Source: a virus (taxonomy: Duplodnaviria; Caudoviricetes). From it: a DNA stretch of 47,067 nt. The translations under genes and the position numbers were made by a program. The stretch lies in the IMG/VR virus record IMGVR_UViG_3300005764_000026, positions 1 to 47,067 of that record. The stretch is one strand, 5' to 3'. The notes under the pieces were generated by a model. The model was not told the origin of the DNA. It worked only from the letters and a program-made list of their open reading frames with translations, and searched no databases. Every line of letters starts with the position of its first letter. Position 1 is the stretch's first letter. Shown in pieces: positions 12,711 through 41,464 of this stretch.

Positions 12711-12871
12711 CATGGAGAAGCATGGTAAGGCCGGTCGGGGTCCGGATTGGCGAGGCCTGGATTGGCATGGGCTAGGCGGGGTTTGGCACGGAACGGCTCG
12801 GATGGGTTAGGCGAGGCGGGGACAGGATAGGTTTGGCTTAGAAGAGGCACGGCTTGGGCGACAACGCAGAA
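12711..12871 (+). ncRNA. GGH-NN pentamer array 1 (putative non-contiguous guide RNA)
   Basis: About 28 tandem GG(C/A/T)NN units ending in TGGGCGACAACGCAGAA, immediately upstream of the RAMP-like gene; RNA function is inferred. Confidence 0.75.
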
Positions 12872-12884
12872 AGGATGAAACAAA

Positions 12885-13460
12885 ATGTATGAAAGGGTCG
12901 ACATTGAAATCCGCGGCATCTGCCCATTGGTCATTCACAATGGCCAATTAGCGGATCCTCTTAATGAATGGTCGAAGCGGATTAAAAAGATCACCGCGAA
13001 AAAGAAGAAAACCGACGAGGACTACAGAGAGGTCGCGCGCCTGGAATTCCTTGGTTCTTTTTACGTCAATGACAAGAAGGAGCCTTGCATTCCCGGAGAG
13101 AACATTGAAGCTATGTTGATTCGCGCTGCTCGTCGCCTCAAACTCGGCGAGGCGGCCGCGACAATAGTCTGCGATGGAAATATCCCGATCATCTACGATG
13201 GTCCCCGCAGCCCAGAGAAGCTCTGGGAGATCGATGCATTTCGCTTCACGAAGTGCGCTCGAATTGGCGCAAAGCGAATCATGCGAACGCGTCCCATCAT
13301 TCGCGATTGGATTTTAAAATTTCTGGCAGGCTTCAATACCGGTCATCTGAATCTGTCAGAACTTGGGCAAATTCTCGAGGTCGCTGCCGAGATGGGTTGC
13401 GGCGATTGGCGTCCGAAATATGGTCGATTCGAAATCGTTTCGCCAAAGGTCTTCAAATGA
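12885..13460 (+). CDS. RAMP/Cas7-like RNA-binding protein (putative effector of the pentamer guide arrays)
   Basis: N-terminal IEIRGICPLVIH strand, PCIPGENIEAMLIRAA helix, and C-terminal Gly-rich loop MGCGDWRPKYGRFEI match the RAMP layout; lower GC than its neighbours. Confidence 0.7.
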   Translation: MYERVDIEIRGICPLVIHNGQLADPLNEWSKRIKKITAKKKKTDEDYREVARLEFLGSFYVNDKKEPCIPGENIEAMLIRAARRLKLGEAAATIVCDGNIPIIYDGPRSPEKLWEIDAFRFTKCARIGAKRIMRTRPIIRDWILKFLAGFNTGHLNLSELGQILEVAAEMGCGDWRPKYGRFEIVSPKVFK

Positions 13461-13915
13461 CCGAACGATGGCCTATAGATGTCGAGACGCTTCAGAAAGG
13501 CGACGTCATTTCGATCGAACGGCTTGAAGTGATTATCGGGCGGCCTCGGGGCGCGCCGGGCTTCGGGCTCGAGGTGCTCAAGATTCGCGAGATGATTGCG
13601 CGTCAATTGGAAGTGATTGGGCGGCCGATGACCATCCGGCAACTCCACGGTCAGCTCGTTCTTTGCGATGACGAAACCGCATCGGTGTATAATCCTCGCG
13701 AGGTCGAAGCTGGTTGGCGCAAAAGCGCTCGGGCCCATAGGCGCAATCTTGCCGTCGACGTTTCGCAGCTCGACCAAGAGCGGCGCGCGCAACATGACCG
13801 AACGCTAGTAACGCACAGTCGCATCTTCCAAGCGATGCGGTCGGCGCGGGTCGATCCAGAGCTTCAACCGGCTACCCGAAATACTCCGCCTCAAGGAAAT
13901 CGAGAGGACGAATGA
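13457..13915 (+). CDS. hypothetical accessory protein coupled to the RAMP-like gene
   Basis: ATGA overlap with the RAMP-like stop; 152 aa (MTERWPID...); array 2 starts right after its stop. Confidence 0.65.
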   Translation: MTERWPIDVETLQKGDVISIERLEVIIGRPRGAPGFGLEVLKIREMIARQLEVIGRPMTIRQLHGQLVLCDDETASVYNPREVEAGWRKSARAHRRNLAVDVSQLDQERRAQHDRTLVTHSRIFQAMRSARVDPELQPATRNTPPQGNREDE

Positions 13916-13918
13916 TTT

Positions 13919-14042
13919 GGCACGGCGCCGTTGGGAAAGGCTTGGCGTCGGCTTGGTCTGGCGCGGACCGGCTTCGGCGCGGCAGGGCTAGGACTCGGCG
14001 CGGATCGGCAGGTCATGGAGAGGCATGGGCGACAACGCAGAA
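13919..14042 (+). ncRNA. GGH-NN pentamer array 2 (putative non-contiguous guide RNA)
   Basis: 21 units, three of them 6 nt long, ending in the same 17-nt TGGGCGACAACGCAGAA. Confidence 0.75.
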
Positions 14043-14070: not shown

Positions 14071-14188
14071 GCTGTGGCTGGGCATGCCACGGCAGTGGCG
14101 GGGTCTGGAATGGCGACGGACTGGTGAGGCCAGGCTCGGCAGGGCAGTGCAAGGACAGGCGCGGAGTGGCAAGGGCCAACAGGCAGAA
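14071..14188 (+). ncRNA. GGH-NN pentamer array 3 (putative non-contiguous guide RNA)
   Basis: About 20 units ending in the variant motif GGGCCAACAGGCAGAA. Confidence 0.72.
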
Positions 14189-17037: not shown

Positions 17038-17637
17038 ATGCCCCAATTTGCTATCAGAGTGACCGACGAGCAGCTGGCCGCGATCCACGCGGCGATCAAG
17101 CGTGTGCACCACGTCGACGACCCCGTCGGCCTCGTCTCCGACTACCTCCGCGAGGCCGCGCTCGTCGCCGCCGGCGTCGAGACTTCGACGCGGTCGCTCG
17201 GCGCCGTCGTCGCGCGCTACGCGACGCTCTGCCGCCGCGCGCGCCCGGCGCTCCTGCCCGCGGAGTGGAAGCTCATTTGCGACGCCTTGAATGGGACTTG
17301 GCTCGCCGACGCGATCTCCGTGATCGCGGTCCCGATCGAAATCGCCGATGCGTTGCGGTTGAACGATCTCGCGACCAAATGGCTCGCGACCGAGGACGAA
17401 CGCGCCGCCGTCGATCGCGCGCTCCTCGCGACGCGCACGCACTCGGCGGAGCCGCGCGACGCCGCGCTCCTCGCTGAAGTCCGCGCACGCGGCACCGATC
17501 TCGCCGCGCGGCTGGCCAGGCTGAGCTACGCCGAGCTCCTGGCTATCGTCGACACCGTGGAACGGTATTGGGCGTCCGATAGAGGTATAGTTCCCGGCGA
17601 GGACGGCTGGCGCGATGAGCGCACGGAGATCACCTGA
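17038..17637 (+). CDS. hypothetical protein with possible N-terminal ribbon-helix-helix
   Basis: MPQFAIRVTDEQLAAIHAA...VSDYLREAAL; AAGGAG RBS; stop overlaps the Uma2 start. Confidence 0.55.
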   Translation: MPQFAIRVTDEQLAAIHAAIKRVHHVDDPVGLVSDYLREAALVAAGVETSTRSLGAVVARYATLCRRARPALLPAEWKLICDALNGTWLADAISVIAVPIEIADALRLNDLATKWLATEDERAAVDRALLATRTHSAEPRDAALLAEVRARGTDLAARLARLSYAELLAIVDTVERYWASDRGIVPGEDGWRDERTEIT

Positions 17638-18209
17638 TGAGACCCGAGATCGAAGAAAATTTCACGGCGAAGATCCTCGACCACTACCCCGACCAGCGGG
17701 TCGAGCTCCTCGATGGCCAGCTCGTCTTTTCGCCGCCCCCGACATCCGGGCATGGCGTCGCTCAGACCGCGATCGCCGCGGAGATTTTCGGCCGTTTCCG
17801 CGGCAATGGGCCGCCCGGCGGTGAGGGGTGGTGGATCATGACGGAGATCGATGTGGCCTATGGGCCGCGCACGGTCTGTCGCCATGACCTCGGCGGCTGG
17901 CGCAAGTCGCGGTACCCGCGGCCGCTCGAGCCGAATCGTCCGCGCGTCCTCGAGCGGCCCGACTGGGTCTGCGAGATCCTCTCGCCGTCGAACGCACGGA
18001 ATGACACCGTCGAGAAGCGCCGCCTTCTCCACGGCTTCGGCGTGCCGCACTACTGGATCGTGAACCCGGCGCGCAAGACGCTGCTCGTGCTGCGCTGGGG
18101 TCAAGAGGACTGGCACGAGCTCCCTGTCCTCGCCGCCGGGCACGTCGGCCGCGTCGAGCCCTTCGACGCCGTCGAGATCGAAGTCGCGCGGCTCTTCGGC
18201 GACGCGTAA
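17637..18209 (+). CDS. Uma2 (DUF820) family PD-(D/E)XK endonuclease
   Basis: VELLDGQL..SPPP...H, PDWVCEILSPS..D..EK, GVPHYWIVNP. Confidence 0.88.
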   Translation: MRPEIEENFTAKILDHYPDQRVELLDGQLVFSPPPTSGHGVAQTAIAAEIFGRFRGNGPPGGEGWWIMTEIDVAYGPRTVCRHDLGGWRKSRYPRPLEPNRPRVLERPDWVCEILSPSNARNDTVEKRRLLHGFGVPHYWIVNPARKTLLVLRWGQEDWHELPVLAAGHVGRVEPFDAVEIEVARLFGDA

Positions 18210-18838: not shown

Positions 18839-20599
18839 ATGCCGATCACGCGGATCTATCGGTACGGTCTCCTCGAGCCGTTCCTCGGCGCCGAGCTCGT
18901 CGCCGAGCAAATGTCGCTCGCCCATCGCTACCAAAACTCTCTGATCGAGCTCGAGCGCGGCCGGCGCGAGCGCGTGCGCGCCATCATGCTCGGCGCGCCG
19001 TCGCTCGAGGAGGCGCAAGCAATCGTCGACCGGGCGGTCAAGGACCTCCTCGACGCGCGGCAGAAGATCAAGGACGTCCGCAAGGCCGCGCAGCGGCGCG
19101 CCGAGACCGAGGCCGACCGCGCATCGGTGTCTGAGATCGTCGTGCGCCTGCGCGAGGCGCGCCGCGTGCTCAAGGAGACGCGCGCCGCGGTGCGCGCCGA
19201 CAGCGCGATCGCGCTGTCCATCGCCGGCGTGAATGACGAGATCGCCGAGGAGCAAAAGCGCCGGCGCGCCGCATGCGGCGTCTACTGGGGCTCCTATCTC
19301 CTCGTCGAACAAGCGATGGACGCGGCTCGCAAAGCGATCGTGGATCCGCGCTTCCGGCGCTGGGACGGCTCGGGCCGGATCGCGGTGCAGTTGCAGGGTG
19401 GCCTATCATGGGCCGACGCGTGCGCCGGCGATACACGCCTGCGCGTCGACCTCGCGCCGCGCGCCGTCGGCAAGGGCAAGCCGCGGCCGACGGTGTCGCT
19501 CCGCGTCGGATCCAATGGCCGCGACCCGGTCTGGGCATCGTGGCCGATCATCCTGCACCGGCCGGTGCCCGAGGACGCGACCATCATGTGGGCCGCGGTG
19601 CATCGGACGATACTCGGCGGCAAGGCGCGGTGGCATCTCCTCCTGACGCTCCGGCTACCCGATGATTTCGTCGTCGAGAAAGGCGGTAAGGGGACGGTCG
19701 CCGTCGACCTCGGCTGGCGGCAACGCGAGAACGGTCTTCGCGTCGGCTACATGCGCGACGACGCCGGCGACGCCGGCGAGATCCTCCTCGAGCCGGCGAT
19801 CGTCGACGGGTTTAAGAAGGTCGACGACCTGCGTTCGATCCGGGACAAGCGGATCGACGTCATGCGGCCGCGCCTCGCGGAATGGCTACGCGAGAGAGAG
19901 CTTCCCGACTGGCTCGCCGCCGAGCGCGCGACGATGCACTTGTGGAAATCCGCGGCGCGCTTCTCGCGACTCGCCGAGATCTGGCGCGGCAAGCGCTGGG
20001 ACGGCGACGTCGAGGGATTCGACCTCCTCTGGGCCTGGCGCGCGAAGGATCGGCACCTGTGGCTCTGGGAGGCGAACCTCCGGGACAAGGTCCTCGCACG
20101 GCGGCTCGATCGATACCGCGTGCTCGGTGCCGAGCTCGCGCGCAAGTATCATACGCTCGTGCTCGAGGATTTCGACCTGCGCAATTTGCAACGGCACGCG
20201 AAGCCGGAATCGGAGACCGTCGAAATCGGACCGGTGCGCGGCCGGCAGCGGATCGCCGCGCCGAGTCTCCTCAGACAAAAGCTCGTCGACGCATTCGTCG
20301 CGCGCGGCGGCCGCGTCGTCGAGGTTCCATCGGCGAATACCACCCGCTCGTGTCATGCGTGCGGCCTCGTCGAGGCCTGGGACCCGGTGACGAACCTCAT
20401 GCACGCCTGTACGGGCTGCGGCGCGCTCTGGGATCAGGACGACAACGCCTGTCGCAATTTGCTCCTGCGCGAGCGGCTCGGTGCTGACGAGGCCAGCGAG
20501 GCCGCTCGCCCGACGGAGACCGAGCCGAAAACCTCGAAATGGGGCCGGCTTGGTCGTCACAAAAAGCGACCGCTCGCAAGCGGCAATGCAAATGAGTGA
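18839..20599 (+). CDS. compact type V CRISPR effector, Cas12m-like (V-M / V-U1; TnpB-derived)
   Basis: 586 aa; long N-terminal coiled coil, YWGSY, RWDGSGRIAVQLQ, RuvC-I VAVDLGWR, WKSAARF, RuvC-II VLEDFDL, Zn finger CHAC/CTGC, RuvC-III WDQDDNA; CRISPR array 25 bp downstream. Confidence 0.82.
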   Translation: MPITRIYRYGLLEPFLGAELVAEQMSLAHRYQNSLIELERGRRERVRAIMLGAPSLEEAQAIVDRAVKDLLDARQKIKDVRKAAQRRAETEADRASVSEIVVRLREARRVLKETRAAVRADSAIALSIAGVNDEIAEEQKRRRAACGVYWGSYLLVEQAMDAARKAIVDPRFRRWDGSGRIAVQLQGGLSWADACAGDTRLRVDLAPRAVGKGKPRPTVSLRVGSNGRDPVWASWPIILHRPVPEDATIMWAAVHRTILGGKARWHLLLTLRLPDDFVVEKGGKGTVAVDLGWRQRENGLRVGYMRDDAGDAGEILLEPAIVDGFKKVDDLRSIRDKRIDVMRPRLAEWLRERELPDWLAAERATMHLWKSAARFSRLAEIWRGKRWDGDVEGFDLLWAWRAKDRHLWLWEANLRDKVLARRLDRYRVLGAELARKYHTLVLEDFDLRNLQRHAKPESETVEIGPVRGRQRIAAPSLLRQKLVDAFVARGGRVVEVPSANTTRSCHACGLVEAWDPVTNLMHACTGCGALWDQDDNACRNLLLRERLGADEASEAARPTETEPKTSKWGRLGRHKKRPLASGNANE

Positions 20600-20624: not shown

Positions 20625-21304
20625 CCGACAACGCCTGCGCAGGGGCGTGGTTTCTGCGACGCGAAGCCATCCAGCTCGCACCCGACGTACAGGCCGCCAT
20701 CCGACAACGCCTGCGCAGGGGCGTGGTTTCTGCGACTCGTACTTGGTCCCGCCGAGGACGGGCTTGCCGTCGGCCGACAACGCCTGCGCAGGGGCGTGGT
20801 TTCTGCGACCGACAAGCCGCTTGCGAGCCGGGCCCTCTGCAAGCGCCGACAACGCCTGCGCAGGGGCGTGGTTTCTGCGACGCAGAAGGACCACACCTTC
20901 GCCGGCACCTGGTGGGACACCGACAACGCCTGCGCAGGGGCGTGGTTTCTGCGACGTGGGACGGAGACCCGACAACGCCTGCGCAGGGGCGTGGTTTCTG
21001 CGACGAGATCCTCTCGCCGTCGAACGCACGGAATGACACCGTCGACCGACAACGCCTGCGCAGGGGCGTGGTTTCTGCGACGATGACGCGGCGTGAGCGG
21101 CTTGCCCGTGGTCGCGTCCCGACAACGCCTGCGCAGGGGCGTGGTTTCTGCGACATCTCGCAGACCCAGTCGGGCCGCTCGAGGACGCGCGCCGACAACG
21201 CCTGCGCAGGGGCGTGGTTTCTGCGACGAGCTCGCCCTTTATCCTTTGGCCCAATCCGATTGATCCCGCCGACAACGCCTGCGCAGGGGCGTGGTTCCTG
21301 CGAC
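20625..21304 (+). CRISPR. CRISPR array, 10 x 36-bp repeats, 9 spacers
   Basis: Repeat CCGACAACGCCTGCGCAGGGGCGTGGTTTCTGCGAC at 20625, 20701, 20774, 20846, 20920, 20969, 21046, 21119, 21192 and 21269 (last has one T>C); spacers 40, 37, 36, 38, 13, 41, 37, 37 and 41 nt; orientation inferred from the cas gene and the degenerate right end. Confidence 0.97.
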
Positions 21305-21596
21305 GTCATCGCGCAGGAGCGTGGTTCCTGCGACGTCAACGCCTGCGCGGAGGCCACGTGTCCGCGACTGGAATGCGATGTGATGTATCAATGCCTGCGC
21401 AGGGGCACGTGCCTGCGACTGTAGCTGCGGCCTGTGGCCGCACCACAATCGTAGAGACCGATAATGCCTGCGCATGGGGGCATGGTTCTCTGCGATTGGA
21501 ATCATCTGCATTGGCAAAATGCCTGCGCAGGGGCTCCGTTCCTGCGAAACGCGGAAGTCGAGACAAACGCCTGCGCGGAGGCCTCGTGTCCGCGAC
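21305..21596 (+). repeat. six divergent CRISPR-repeat-like units with irregular short spacers
   Basis: Units at about 21311, 21335, 21385, 21458, 21513 and 21561 keep the GC(C)TGCGC..GG..(C/T)GCGA core. Confidence 0.8.
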
Positions 21597-21974: not shown

Positions 21975-24122
21975 CTAGATGCCGCGCAGGTCTCCAGTCA
22001 GTCCGGCGGCGATGATACGCGCATCGCTGCCGATCGGCGTGAGCTCGGCGATGGGGCCGATGGCCACGACGACGCCGAGCATCGGCCGATAGACGGCGTA
22101 GGGACTGAGGATCGGGACGCCGAACCCTTCCTCCGACGGAATGCCGATCGGATCGATCAAACGCACGAGACGCGGCCGCCCGAAGGCCTCCGCCGACGCG
22201 ATGCCGCGCGCGTAGAGCTCGAGCGCAAGGCGCGGCGTCCCGAAGGCCTCGACGCTCGCGATGCCGCGCGGCCGGATGACGCCGCTGCCGTCGTCGACGC
22301 CCGGCTCGCCGAAGGCCTCCGCGGACGGGATGCCGTGCGGATAGATCGTCTGGCGCAGCGTCGGAACGCCGAAGGCCTCGGCGCTGGCGATGCCGGCGGC
22401 GGTGAGCCTTTGCGTCAAGCTCGGGATGCCGAAGGCCTCGGCGCTCGGGATGCCGCTCGCGACGAGCTCGAGCGTGAGCCGCGGCGTGCCGAAGGCCTCC
22501 GCGCTCGGGATGCCGACCGGCGCGACGAACTCGATCATGCGCGGCGTGCCGAAGGCCTCCGCCGAGGGAATTCCGGCCGCGTGGAGCTCGAGCGCCAGCG
22601 TAGGCGTGCCGAAGGCCTCGGCCGACGCGATGCCTGTGGGATCGACGAGCTTGACGACGCGCGGGGTGCCGAAGGCCTCGCCGGAAGCGATGCCGGCCGC
22701 CGCGATGTGAAGCCCGAGAACCGGCGTCCCGAACGCCGCCGCGCTCGCGATCCCATTGGGCCCGACGTATTGCGTGAGCTTCGGCGAGCCGAAGGTCTCC
22801 GCCGACGCGATGCCCGTGGGCGATATCGTCTGCGACGGCAGACCCTCGGCGAGCTCAAGCGTGATACCGGCGACCTGGGTATTGACGCCGTTGGTGTTCG
22901 ACGACGTCGATTCGCCGTTCGGCCGGAACTGGTACATCTTGGAGAAACTGCCGGTGGCGATCGAGTACTGCTCGCCCCATCCCGAGCGCGGCGTCGATTG
23001 CGCCGAGCCGTTGACGCCGAAGAAGGCGAAGCAGGCATTGTCGGCGAGCACTGACGAGTTCGGCGTGATCGTCAAGCTCGTCGCCGCCGCCGTCCCCGAG
23101 GTTCCAGTCTTCGACTGGCGAATCGGCGACGACGAATTGCAGCCGCCGAGCTCCCACCAGGAGATGTGGCTGTTCGTCGCCTGCGCCTGGCCGGCGAAGC
23201 TCGCAGTGAACACGCCGGCGCCCGACGCGGTGCCCGTCGCGATGAACGCCGTGATCGCGAGCTGGGTTCCGCCCGAGGCGCCGCACTGCACGGTCGCGAT
23301 CTGCGAGACCGAGAGACCCGACGGCGACGCCGTGATCGTCGGCGTGTTCGTCGTCGTGCCCGAGGTCGCCTCGTTCATGACGATGATGAGCTGGCTCGTG
23401 TTGGCGGTCGGCGTATGCGAGCCGGTCGAAAACGAAGTATTGGTGCTCGAGCCGTTCGGCGCCTGCTCGACGAGCTTCACCGTCGACTGGTGGAATTTGA
23501 TCGTTCCCGAGAATTCGATCCATCCGGTGACGTTGGTGGTGTTCGACTCGTTCGCCGGGCCGTCGGCAATGTCGGTATGCGTCGAAGTGTTGAAGTCACC
23601 GTAGGCGGCGCTCGCGCCGACGGTGCCCGAGCTCGCGGTGTTCTGGTAGCCAATGCCGATGACGATGCGGTCGAGGTCATTGGCGTTGACCGACGACATG
23701 GAATTGCCGTTGAACCAGGCCTTGCTTATCTGCTGGACGCTCGAGATGTTGGTCGCGACGTACTGCGCCGCGGAGAGGAGCGTGCCACGCACCGTCGAGC
23801 CGTCATTCGAGACGACGAAAATCTCCGCGTAGCTTCGAATCGGGCCGCCAGCGGCGGCGATGGCGCGGGTGTAGAGCTGGACGGTGCCCGAGAGGGTCTG
23901 CGCACCGGCGAGCGGCGGCGAGACGTAGTACCGATCCAGTGCGGTTTTGGTACCGGTCGTCCCGACGTTGATCGAAGTCCCAGTGTTCAGACCCGATCCC
24001 ATGTGCTGGAGACCGAGCTGGCGTAGGACGGCGCTGGCCGTGCTCGCCCACACGCCGCCGCCGGTGAACGACGGCGACACCGTCGGCGACGTCTGAAACG
24101 GCAGGTAGCAGCGCGTCGTCAC
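21975..24122 (-). CDS. large Ser/Thr/Gly-rich virion (fiber/appendage) protein with 20-aa tandem repeats
   Basis: About 12 copies of GI(A/P)SAEAFG(T)P at 60-bp period in the C-terminal third. Confidence 0.65.
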   Translation of the reverse strand: MTTRCYLPFQTSPTVSPSFTGGGVWASTASAVLRQLGLQHMGSGLNTGTSINVGTTGTKTALDRYYVSPPLAGAQTLSGTVQLYTRAIAAAGGPIRSYAEIFVVSNDGSTVRGTLLSAAQYVATNISSVQQISKAWFNGNSMSSVNANDLDRIVIGIGYQNTASSGTVGASAAYGDFNTSTHTDIADGPANESNTTNVTGWIEFSGTIKFHQSTVKLVEQAPNGSSTNTSFSTGSHTPTANTSQLIIVMNEATSGTTTNTPTITASPSGLSVSQIATVQCGASGGTQLAITAFIATGTASGAGVFTASFAGQAQATNSHISWWELGGCNSSSPIRQSKTGTSGTAAATSLTITPNSSVLADNACFAFFGVNGSAQSTPRSGWGEQYSIATGSFSKMYQFRPNGESTSSNTNGVNTQVAGITLELAEGLPSQTISPTGIASAETFGSPKLTQYVGPNGIASAAAFGTPVLGLHIAAAGIASGEAFGTPRVVKLVDPTGIASAEAFGTPTLALELHAAGIPSAEAFGTPRMIEFVAPVGIPSAEAFGTPRLTLELVASGIPSAEAFGIPSLTQRLTAAGIASAEAFGVPTLRQTIYPHGIPSAEAFGEPGVDDGSGVIRPRGIASVEAFGTPRLALELYARGIASAEAFGRPRLVRLIDPIGIPSEEGFGVPILSPYAVYRPMLGVVVAIGPIAELTPIGSDARIIAAGLTGDLRGI

Positions 24123-40531: not shown

Positions 40532-41464
40532 TTATGGCGGGGTCGTCGTCCCGTTCGAGCCCCACGCCGCTTGCCACATCGCGTAGCCGGCGTTGTCTCG
40601 GGTGTACGCCGACCACCTGAGGATCCGGCGCATGAAGTTCTCGTCGTCGGTTGGCCGATCCTGCGCGACGAACTGCACCGGCTCGCGCAACTGATGGACG
40701 AACGGCTTGATCCCGGATTGTGACTGGTCGACGAGGAACCAGTACGTCGGATGCTCGGACAGCCGATTCCAGACGTTCAGATTTACGATGCCCTTCAAGA
40801 CGTTCGTCTGGGACAAGCTGTTAATGACGATGACCTCTGCGTTCAGGATCTGCCGAGCGGTGTACTCGAGCGCCGGTCCGACGTAGAGGTCCGTCGGCGC
40901 GATTCGCAGCGCGCGGTTGTTGTCGTCTTTCAGCGACCGCATCTGGGCAATCGCGGCCGCAAGCGTGTCGGCACGGAAGATGTCCGTTCCCTTGTTGGAC
41001 TGCGTCGGCGCGCCCGTCGCGCCGCTGTTGTGATCGGTGTCGAAGAAAAACTGCCCGTCCCACGCCAGGCCGCTCGTCGAGCCGAATCCGTTCACCATCA
41101 AGGTGTAAATCAGGTCCTCGACGTGGTACGCGGCCTCGGCAGCGAGGTTCTCGATCTGCGGCCGCACGACGCCGAGCTGATCGTCCTCGAGATCCTCGCG
41201 CAGGAGCTCGATACCGCCTTGCCAGGTCTTGTTGACGAGCTGGAAGCCATAGGCCGACAGGCGCGAGAACTGCGCGTCGTCGAGCCATTCGCGGAGCTTC
41301 GGGAACGAGTTGGCCCAGACGTAGCGCTCACTGCGGCCCAGCGACGGGACTTCCTGTACGAGCGGATCAATGGTGAGCCGCTCGCGCATGGTCATGAACA
41401 CCTTGTTGAACAAGGTGTGGAATCGATAGTCAGCGTCGGCGAGTTTAGCTCTGTTGATAATCAT
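40532..41464 (-). CDS. Mu gpT-like major capsid protein
   Basis: PKLREW, N...I...REDLEDDQLG, DGQFFFDTDH, WFLVD....KPFVHQ.R, R.NAGY..WQ.A; start MIINRA. Confidence 0.9.
   Translation of the reverse strand: MIINRAKLADADYRFHTLFNKVFMTMRERLTIDPLVQEVPSLGRSERYVWANSFPKLREWLDDAQFSRLSAYGFQLVNKTWQGGIELLREDLEDDQLGVVRPQIENLAAEAAYHVEDLIYTLMVNGFGSTSGLAWDGQFFFDTDHNSGATGAPTQSNKGTDIFRADTLAAAIAQMRSLKDDNNRALRIAPTDLYVGPALEYTARQILNAEVIVINSLSQTNVLKGIVNLNVWNRLSEHPTYWFLVDQSQSGIKPFVHQLREPVQFVAQDRPTDDENFMRRILRWSAYTRDNAGYAMWQAAWGSNGTTTPP

What the first reader, a model, noticed from the sequence alone, without database searches (positions are those of the whole stretch)
13919..14042. Array 2 decodes, on the opposite strand, to a second capsid-like segment
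Seen: the NN series is AC GC TG AA TT GT(c) TT CT GC CC TT(c) GC AG TA CT(c) GC TC AG AT GA AT. Reverse-complemented and read as codon positions 1-2, it allows S-I-L-E-A-(R/S)-Y-L-A-N-G-A-S-N-T-N-F-(Q/H)-A-V. This is comparable to the own-capsid QILNAEVIVINSLSQTNVLKGIV (about 40784-40850) and to gpT-family IL.AE.LANGASN as I recall it. It is the weakest of the three decodings because three 6-nt units are ambiguous.
Basis: partly seen in the sequence, partly recalled or inferred. Interest (0 to 1): 0.8.

Follow-up and report, generated by a model that had tools for sequence, protein, structure and literature searches.

The report
Phage guide RNA targeting rival capsids
This soil phage carries a VIPR system, a known RNA-guided DNA-binding system of phages, and this repeat array is likely one of its guide RNAs, whose coded letters match the capsid genes of other Mu-like phages but not its own and so would likely help it silence a rival.

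Summary
Bases 13919-14042 are 21 GGN/NN units plus a 16-nt tail shared with array 1, directly behind a vipr gene (SUSP1 Vipr, E 1.6e-30) and a Vap1-like gene. It is a guide array of a VIPR system (Doudna lab preprints, 2026).

Read by the published one-base-skip rule on the opposite strand, it lands on codons about 197-217 of Mu gpT-like capsids. Against a profile not selected for it, it scores 15.7 bits; 4 of 5000 shuffles reach that. The best DNA match is a gpT gene of another phage: 14 of 21 units, 33 of 42 bases, in register across two 6-nt units. The own capsid gives 22 of 42. Arrays 1 and 3 decode, more strongly, to two other conserved gpT stretches.

Verdict: new member of a known system. 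The small twists are three guides on one structural gene family, long guides, and read-through of 6-nt units.

The parts
13919..14026 (+). Array 2: 21 GGN/NN units (three of 6 nt), predicted vrRNA guide region, antisense to gpT codons about 197-217
14027..14042 (+). Conserved 3' tail of array 2, identical 16 nt to array 1; 3-bp hairpin followed by AGAA
   Evidence: folding z-score not significant
12714..12871 (+). Array 1: 28 units plus tail, upstream of vipr; decodes in sense orientation to gpT codons about 112-139 (its first units fit poorly)
   Evidence: 32.4 bits, 0 of 5000
14076..14188 (+). Array 3: 19 units plus variant tail with one compensatory pair in the hairpin; decodes antisense to gpT codons about 228-246
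   Evidence: 28.1 bits, 0 of 5000; the pair is read from the sequence
12885..13460 (+). vipr gene, 191 aa RAMP protein
   Evidence: SUSP1 Vipr PDB 36pp_D E 1.6e-30; model pLDDT 93.8; Foldseek hits to type III and VII CRISPR subunits; key residues kept
13457..13915 (+). Accessory gene, 152 aa, distant Vap1-like (ATGA overlap with vipr)
   Evidence: profile of 25 sequences (itself and homologs beside vipr in 24 of 80 loci) hits the gene behind vipr in a Felixounavirus at E 1e-6 for a single comparison; pairwise BLASTP finds nothing
40532..41464 (-). The phage's own Mu gpT-like major capsid gene: same family as the decoded targets, but not matched by the guides (homologous site for array 2 at 40784-40852)
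   Evidence: PF10124 E 2.7e-60; best 22 of 42, 25 of 56 and 22 of 38 informative bases for arrays 2, 1, 3

Best explanation
Array 2 is likely a VIPR guide RNA that, bound by a filament of the neighbouring Vipr protein, would pair its NN letters with codon positions 1-2 on the coding strand of a rival phage's Mu gpT-like capsid gene, skipping the wobble base, and would likely block transcription there. Shown: the array, tail, Vipr and Vap1-like genes, the decoding to gpT, the constant 3-nt register across two 6-nt units, and the poor match to the own capsid. Inferred from the SUSP1 system: expression of the RNA, binding, and silencing by roadblock. Inferred from the register: the extra base of a 6-nt unit is looped out and not read. 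With arrays 1 and 3 hitting two other conserved stretches of the same gene family, on both strands, the phage (temperate by its integrase) would shut down head production of a co-infecting or resident gpT-type phage while sparing its own diverged capsid gene.
For: Vipr identity: E 1.6e-30 to SUSP1 Vipr; H17, K33, E71, R138, D177, W178, R179 of the Felixounavirus protein have the same residue here. Profile tests. Natural gpT proteins cover the decoding in overlapping parts: P0129 15 of 21, P0346 14 (13 consecutive positions), P0242 14. DNA: the gpT gene in L180 (PF10124 E 4e-115) matches 14 of 21 units, 11 of the first 12, 33 of 42 bases. Six of the 13 units not used in the search pattern match (binomial P 5e-4 at an assumed p of 0.09). 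A 4-nt step at the 6-nt units drops the match to 7; skips of 0, 2 or 3 give 8. L205/L206 13 of 21 and L013 11 of 21 are gpT genes too. Arrays 1 and 3 point independently to gpT. No self match above shuffles in the window.
Against: No target at the published bar of 80% or more: best 79%. Exact scans found nothing for an 11-unit pattern in metagenomes or for three array 1/3 patterns in viral contigs. None of 13 metagenome and 8 genome hits was a gpT gene. Among 80 capsid loci array 2 reached 11 of 21, inside the shuffle range (max 12). By plain residue counts the forward orientation also gave one 12-of-21 hit, above its 60-shuffle maximum of 10, so counts are noisy. The pattern that found L180 was shaped by P0129. 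No single capsid of 265 matches all three guides well (best 38 of 68, median 29). A quarter of the anchors are GGA; GGY-to-GGA was among the substitutions tested for SUSP1, where perturbing GGY is reported to abolish silencing.
Confidence: 0.8

Rival explanations
1. The array is a real vrRNA once aimed at a gpT gene but is now decayed: 6-nt units and non-GGY anchors have broken it, or its target has moved on.
For: Three 6-nt units and 7 of 21 non-GGY anchors; best target 79%; published callers model 5-nt units only.
Against: The decoding stays in frame and sense-like over all 21 units. The tail is identical to that of array 1. Vipr and the accessory gene are intact. Clean 6-nt units occur in 7 of 70 related loci with arrays, and GGA-dominated arrays in 8 of 70. 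NNNGG-type vrRNAs are published.
Confidence: 0.12
2. The array is a vrRNA, but the capsid likeness is chance and the true target is some other gene.
For: Weakest of the three; 4 of 5000 shuffles match it on the unselected profile; three ambiguous units add freedom; inside the null among 80 capsid loci.
Against: The shuffles carry the same ambiguity. The family was fixed beforehand by arrays 1 and 3. The hit falls on one homologous site in two profiles and in DNA from separate scans.
Confidence: 0.05
3. The guides regulate the phage's own capsid gene (timing of late genes or self-immunity in the prophage), or recall an ancestral own capsid.
For: Same protein family; for arrays 1 and 3 the best or tied-best unit match in the window is the own capsid site (8 of 28, 8 of 19).
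Against: Those matches lie inside the shuffle range. The own capsid is among the poorest of 265 (22 of 68, median 29), and its five closest relatives score 24-28. The own gene has insertions at the array 1 and 2 sites.
Confidence: 0.03

Closest known systems
VIPR type II of Escherichia phage SUSP1 and the Pseudomonas fulva prophage (bioRxiv 10.64898/2026.04.26.720920, .720927)
   Same: Vipr RAMP (E 1.6e-30; 37% identity to Felixounavirus Viprs), accessory gene directly behind it, one guide upstream and guides downstream, GGY/NN units, shared 3' tail, one-base skip on the wobble position, targets on both strands, no self-target.
   Different: Guides of 19-28 units against the published 9-16; internal 6-nt units read in register; about a quarter GGA anchors; a short hairpin tail with no sign of the SUSP1 pseudoknot. 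All three guides point at a major capsid gene, whereas the targets named in the text I read are a satellite and its recombinase, lysis-lysogeny regulators, vipr genes, vrRNAs and REP elements. Data S3, the full target list, was not seen.
SUSP1 VIPR against F5 satellites, and orphan vrRNAs (bioRxiv 10.64898/2026.10.15.759431)
   Same: Wobble-aligned targeting of conserved coding stretches inside a competitor's essential gene.
   Different: The target here is a structural gene of the same family as the carrier's own capsid, so the competitor is likely a full phage, not a capsid-less satellite.
Class 1 CRISPR RAMPs (type III Csm/Cmr and type VII subunits)
   Same: Fold likeness of the Vipr model (Foldseek E 6e-5, TM about 0.5).
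   Different: No CRISPR repeats or other cas genes at this locus; gapped instead of contiguous pairing.

Membership tests
VIPR | Vipr RAMP protein with thumb and G-loop residues | tested here: met
VIPR | Tandem 5-nt GGY/NN (or related NNNGG) arrays flanking vipr on the same strand | tested here: met
   the only strong period-5 clusters in the window flank vipr; some GGA anchors and 6-nt units
VIPR | Conserved structured 3' tail | tested here: inconclusive
   16 nt identical in arrays 1 and 2, variant with a compensatory pair in array 3; folding not better than shuffles
VIPR | One-base-skip code with the skip on the wobble position | tested here: met
   L180: 14 units at skip 1, 8 at skips 0, 2, 3; profile tests
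VIPR | Natural target at 80% or more NN match (working bar of the discovery paper, not met by all published guides) | tested here: inconclusive
   best 33 of 42, 79%; the collections searched hold no close relative of the target
VIPR | No self-targeting | tested here: met
   best in window 26 of 42 bases, 9 of 21 units, inside the shuffle range
VIPR | vrRNA expressed, bound by Vipr, silences the target | not testable with these tools
   needs bench work
VIPR type II | vap1-like accessory gene behind vipr | tested here: inconclusive
   profile hit E 1e-6 for one comparison with the Felixounavirus gene taken as vap1 by position; pairwise none
VIPR type II | Placement in the type II clade of the Vipr tree | not tested
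   the typed reference set was not available
CRISPR array | Long direct repeats with contiguous spacers | tested here: not met
   period is 5 nt; Tandem Repeats Finder and Rfam list nothing here

The most novel reading that the evidence does not exclude
This phage uses VIPR as a kin-exclusion weapon: three long guides sit on conserved coding stretches of the Mu gpT capsid family, its own capsid having diverged at all three sites, so that one locus silences head genes across a range of related phages. The Vipr filament loops out extra guide bases without losing the 3-nt target register, an insertion tolerance that current 5-nt guide callers would miss.
Probability: 0.35. Interest if true: 0.58.

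Novelty: new member of a known kind. Interest (0 to 1): 0.38.

Why it matters
It adds a structural-gene target class to VIPR biology: phage against related phage at the capsid gene. It suggests that 6-nt units are read through in register, which bears on how guides are called and designed. It also shows that a guide's target family can be recovered through protein profiles when the target genome is missing. The system itself and its code are published.

Tried and rejected
Skips of 0, 2 and 3 bases: no signal. Forward orientation: 3.9-4.7 bits, below the null mean. R/S at unit 15 rejected in favour of E. A 4-nt target step at 6-nt units rejected (14 against 7 units). The ORFs lying over the array were taken as by-products of the repeat and not tested further.

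Target hunts without result: 0 hits; 21 hits, none gpT; region search with P0129 returned only itself; no close relative of P0129 in viral contigs (best 50%) or of P0346 in GenBank phages (36%). Contigs of four soil runs laid on the L180 capsid gene gave only short pieces, none spanning the array 2 site (two runs were read only about half). 18 of the 19 hits were not gpT; my note wrongly called all 19 chance.

Arrays of 80 related vipr loci did not decode to gpT above shuffles (115 arrays including the window's two), so capsid targeting is not general in that set. No RNA holder listed. No sigma-70 promoter match. The single-sequence fold was poor. No complex prediction was run.

Full report
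Context. The window is a whole 47 kb contig held in soil metagenome runs (4 of 5 may be its source). It is a tailed phage with Mu-like portal, protease and gpT capsid, tail sheath, terminase and a tyrosine integrase. The only strong period-5 GGY clusters lie at about 12.7-12.9 kb and 13.9-14.2 kb, on either side of two genes.

The system. ORF 12885-13460 matches SUSP1 Vipr (PDB 36pp_D, E 1.6e-30, the only hit at E up to 10). Its model (pLDDT 93.8) resembles type III and VII CRISPR subunits. Seven of the ten RNA- or DNA-contacting positions named in the structure preprint are identical; the three that differ (M72, C173 and position 175) line the pocket said to exclude purines at the third anchor base (aligned to a Felixounavirus Vipr), which may relate to the GGA anchors here (inference). 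ORF 13457-13915 has homologs beside vipr in 24 of 80 related loci at E 1e-4, and their profile hits the gene behind vipr in a Felixounavirus (E 1e-6, one comparison; BLASTP none). So this is VIPR, type II-like in layout.

The observation. Arrays 1 and 2 share a 16-nt tail; array 3 has a variant with one compensatory pair in a 3-bp hairpin (read; folding not significant).

Is the capsid decoding more than chance? Each unit was scored as codon positions 1-2 against gpT profiles, shuffling unit order and taking the best of both strands. A profile of 183 capsids gave 19.8 bits at position 197, 0 of 2000 shuffles; it includes proteins found through P0129, itself picked for matching, so it is partly circular. 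A profile of 99 of the 120 proteins found with the own capsid (P0129 left out; 6 outside the length range and 14 in a second profile) gave 15.7 bits at the same position, 4 of 5000; the second profile 14.7 bits, 3 of 5000; a Vipr profile as control 2634 of 5000. Arrays 1 (sense) and 3 (antisense) scored 32.4 and 28.1 bits, 0 of 5000, at positions 112 and 228. Among 267 capsid-family proteins the best counts were 15, 14 and 14 of 21 (P0129, P0346, P0242), covering overlapping parts of the decoding. Against this: the forward reading gave one 12-of-21 count above its shuffles, and among 80 capsid loci array 2 stayed inside the null at 11 of 21.

DNA evidence. Three pattern scans of viral contigs returned gpT genes at the homologous site: L013 (1 of 19), L180 (1 of 1), L205 and L206 (2 of 5, same peptide). 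L180 matches 14 of 21 units, 11 of the first 12, 33 of 42 bases; 6 of the 13 units outside the pattern match. Other skips give 8. A longer step at the 6-nt units gives 7, so units 6 and 11 are read in the plain 3-nt register. The true target was not found; 79% is just under the published 80% bar.

Self or other. The own capsid gives 22 of 42 bases for array 2 and a three-guide total of 22 of 68, against a median of 29 and a best of 38 among 265 capsids. No window site exceeds shuffles at skip 1. The guides point at another gpT-type phage; whether at one gene or several is open.

Mechanism. By the published mechanism Vipr coats the RNA, hides the anchors, pairs NN with DNA and skips every third base; binding silences from either strand. 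Array 2 would pair with the coding strand in the middle of a rival capsid gene. Expression, binding and silencing are inferred, not shown.

How unusual. Of 80 related vipr loci, 70 have arrays; 7 of 70 have a clean internal 6-nt unit (55 by a loose count that runs across tails) and 8 of 70 a GGA-dominated array, so these traits are not unique. None of their arrays decodes to gpT.

Literature seen. 10.64898/2026.04.26.720920: parts 1, 2, 3 and 6 of 6, section 27, term search (capsid 0, insertion 0), and a term search of the supplement PDF of its PMC copy (capsid 0, head 0). Data S3, the target list, was not seen and may hold capsid targets. 10.64898/2026.04.26.720927: part 1 of 6 and term search. 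10.64898/2026.10.15.759431: parts 1 and 3 of 8, section 17, and 12 of 16 passages, none naming a capsid gene as target; its supplements were not seen. 10.64898/2026.10.21.760802: 12 passages. Two library searches listed no other VIPR paper.

Verdict. Real feature, interpretation supported, new member of a known system with modest twists. Interest 0.38.

Noticed in passing
window 18839-20599 and 20625-21340: A Cas12 of the Cas12u1/Cas12f profiles (PADLOC E 4e-114) followed by a CRISPR array of 36-nt repeats. From recall, V-U1 is Cas12m, a binder that silences without cutting; the phage would then carry two RNA-guided silencers.
   Followed up: partly
window 21005-21045 and 21155-21191 against 17941-18013: Two CRISPR spacers match the phage's own DNA exactly, on opposite strands and overlapping by 5 nt, inside a Uma2-family gene at 17637-18209. 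Self-targeting, or targeting of host Uma2 paralogs; PAM not worked out.
   Followed up: partly
window 12714-12745: The first six or so units of array 1 do not fit gpT while the rest do; the guide may start later or carry an older part.
   Followed up: no
L180 9967-10893 against window 40532-41464: gpT genes come in two orders of blocks: in L180 and L013 the stretch hit by array 3 lies before the one hit by array 2, in the own type after it.
   Followed up: partly
L145, L151, L153, L154, L160, L164 beside vipr: Very long GGN/NN tracts, over 100 units by a loose parse; likely chains of several guides.
   Followed up: no
L100, L111, L148, L156, L166 beside vipr: Arrays in which GGA is the main anchor.
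   Followed up: no
window 22422-22700: A 60/120-nt tandem repeat inside a long ORF on the minus strand.
   Followed up: no
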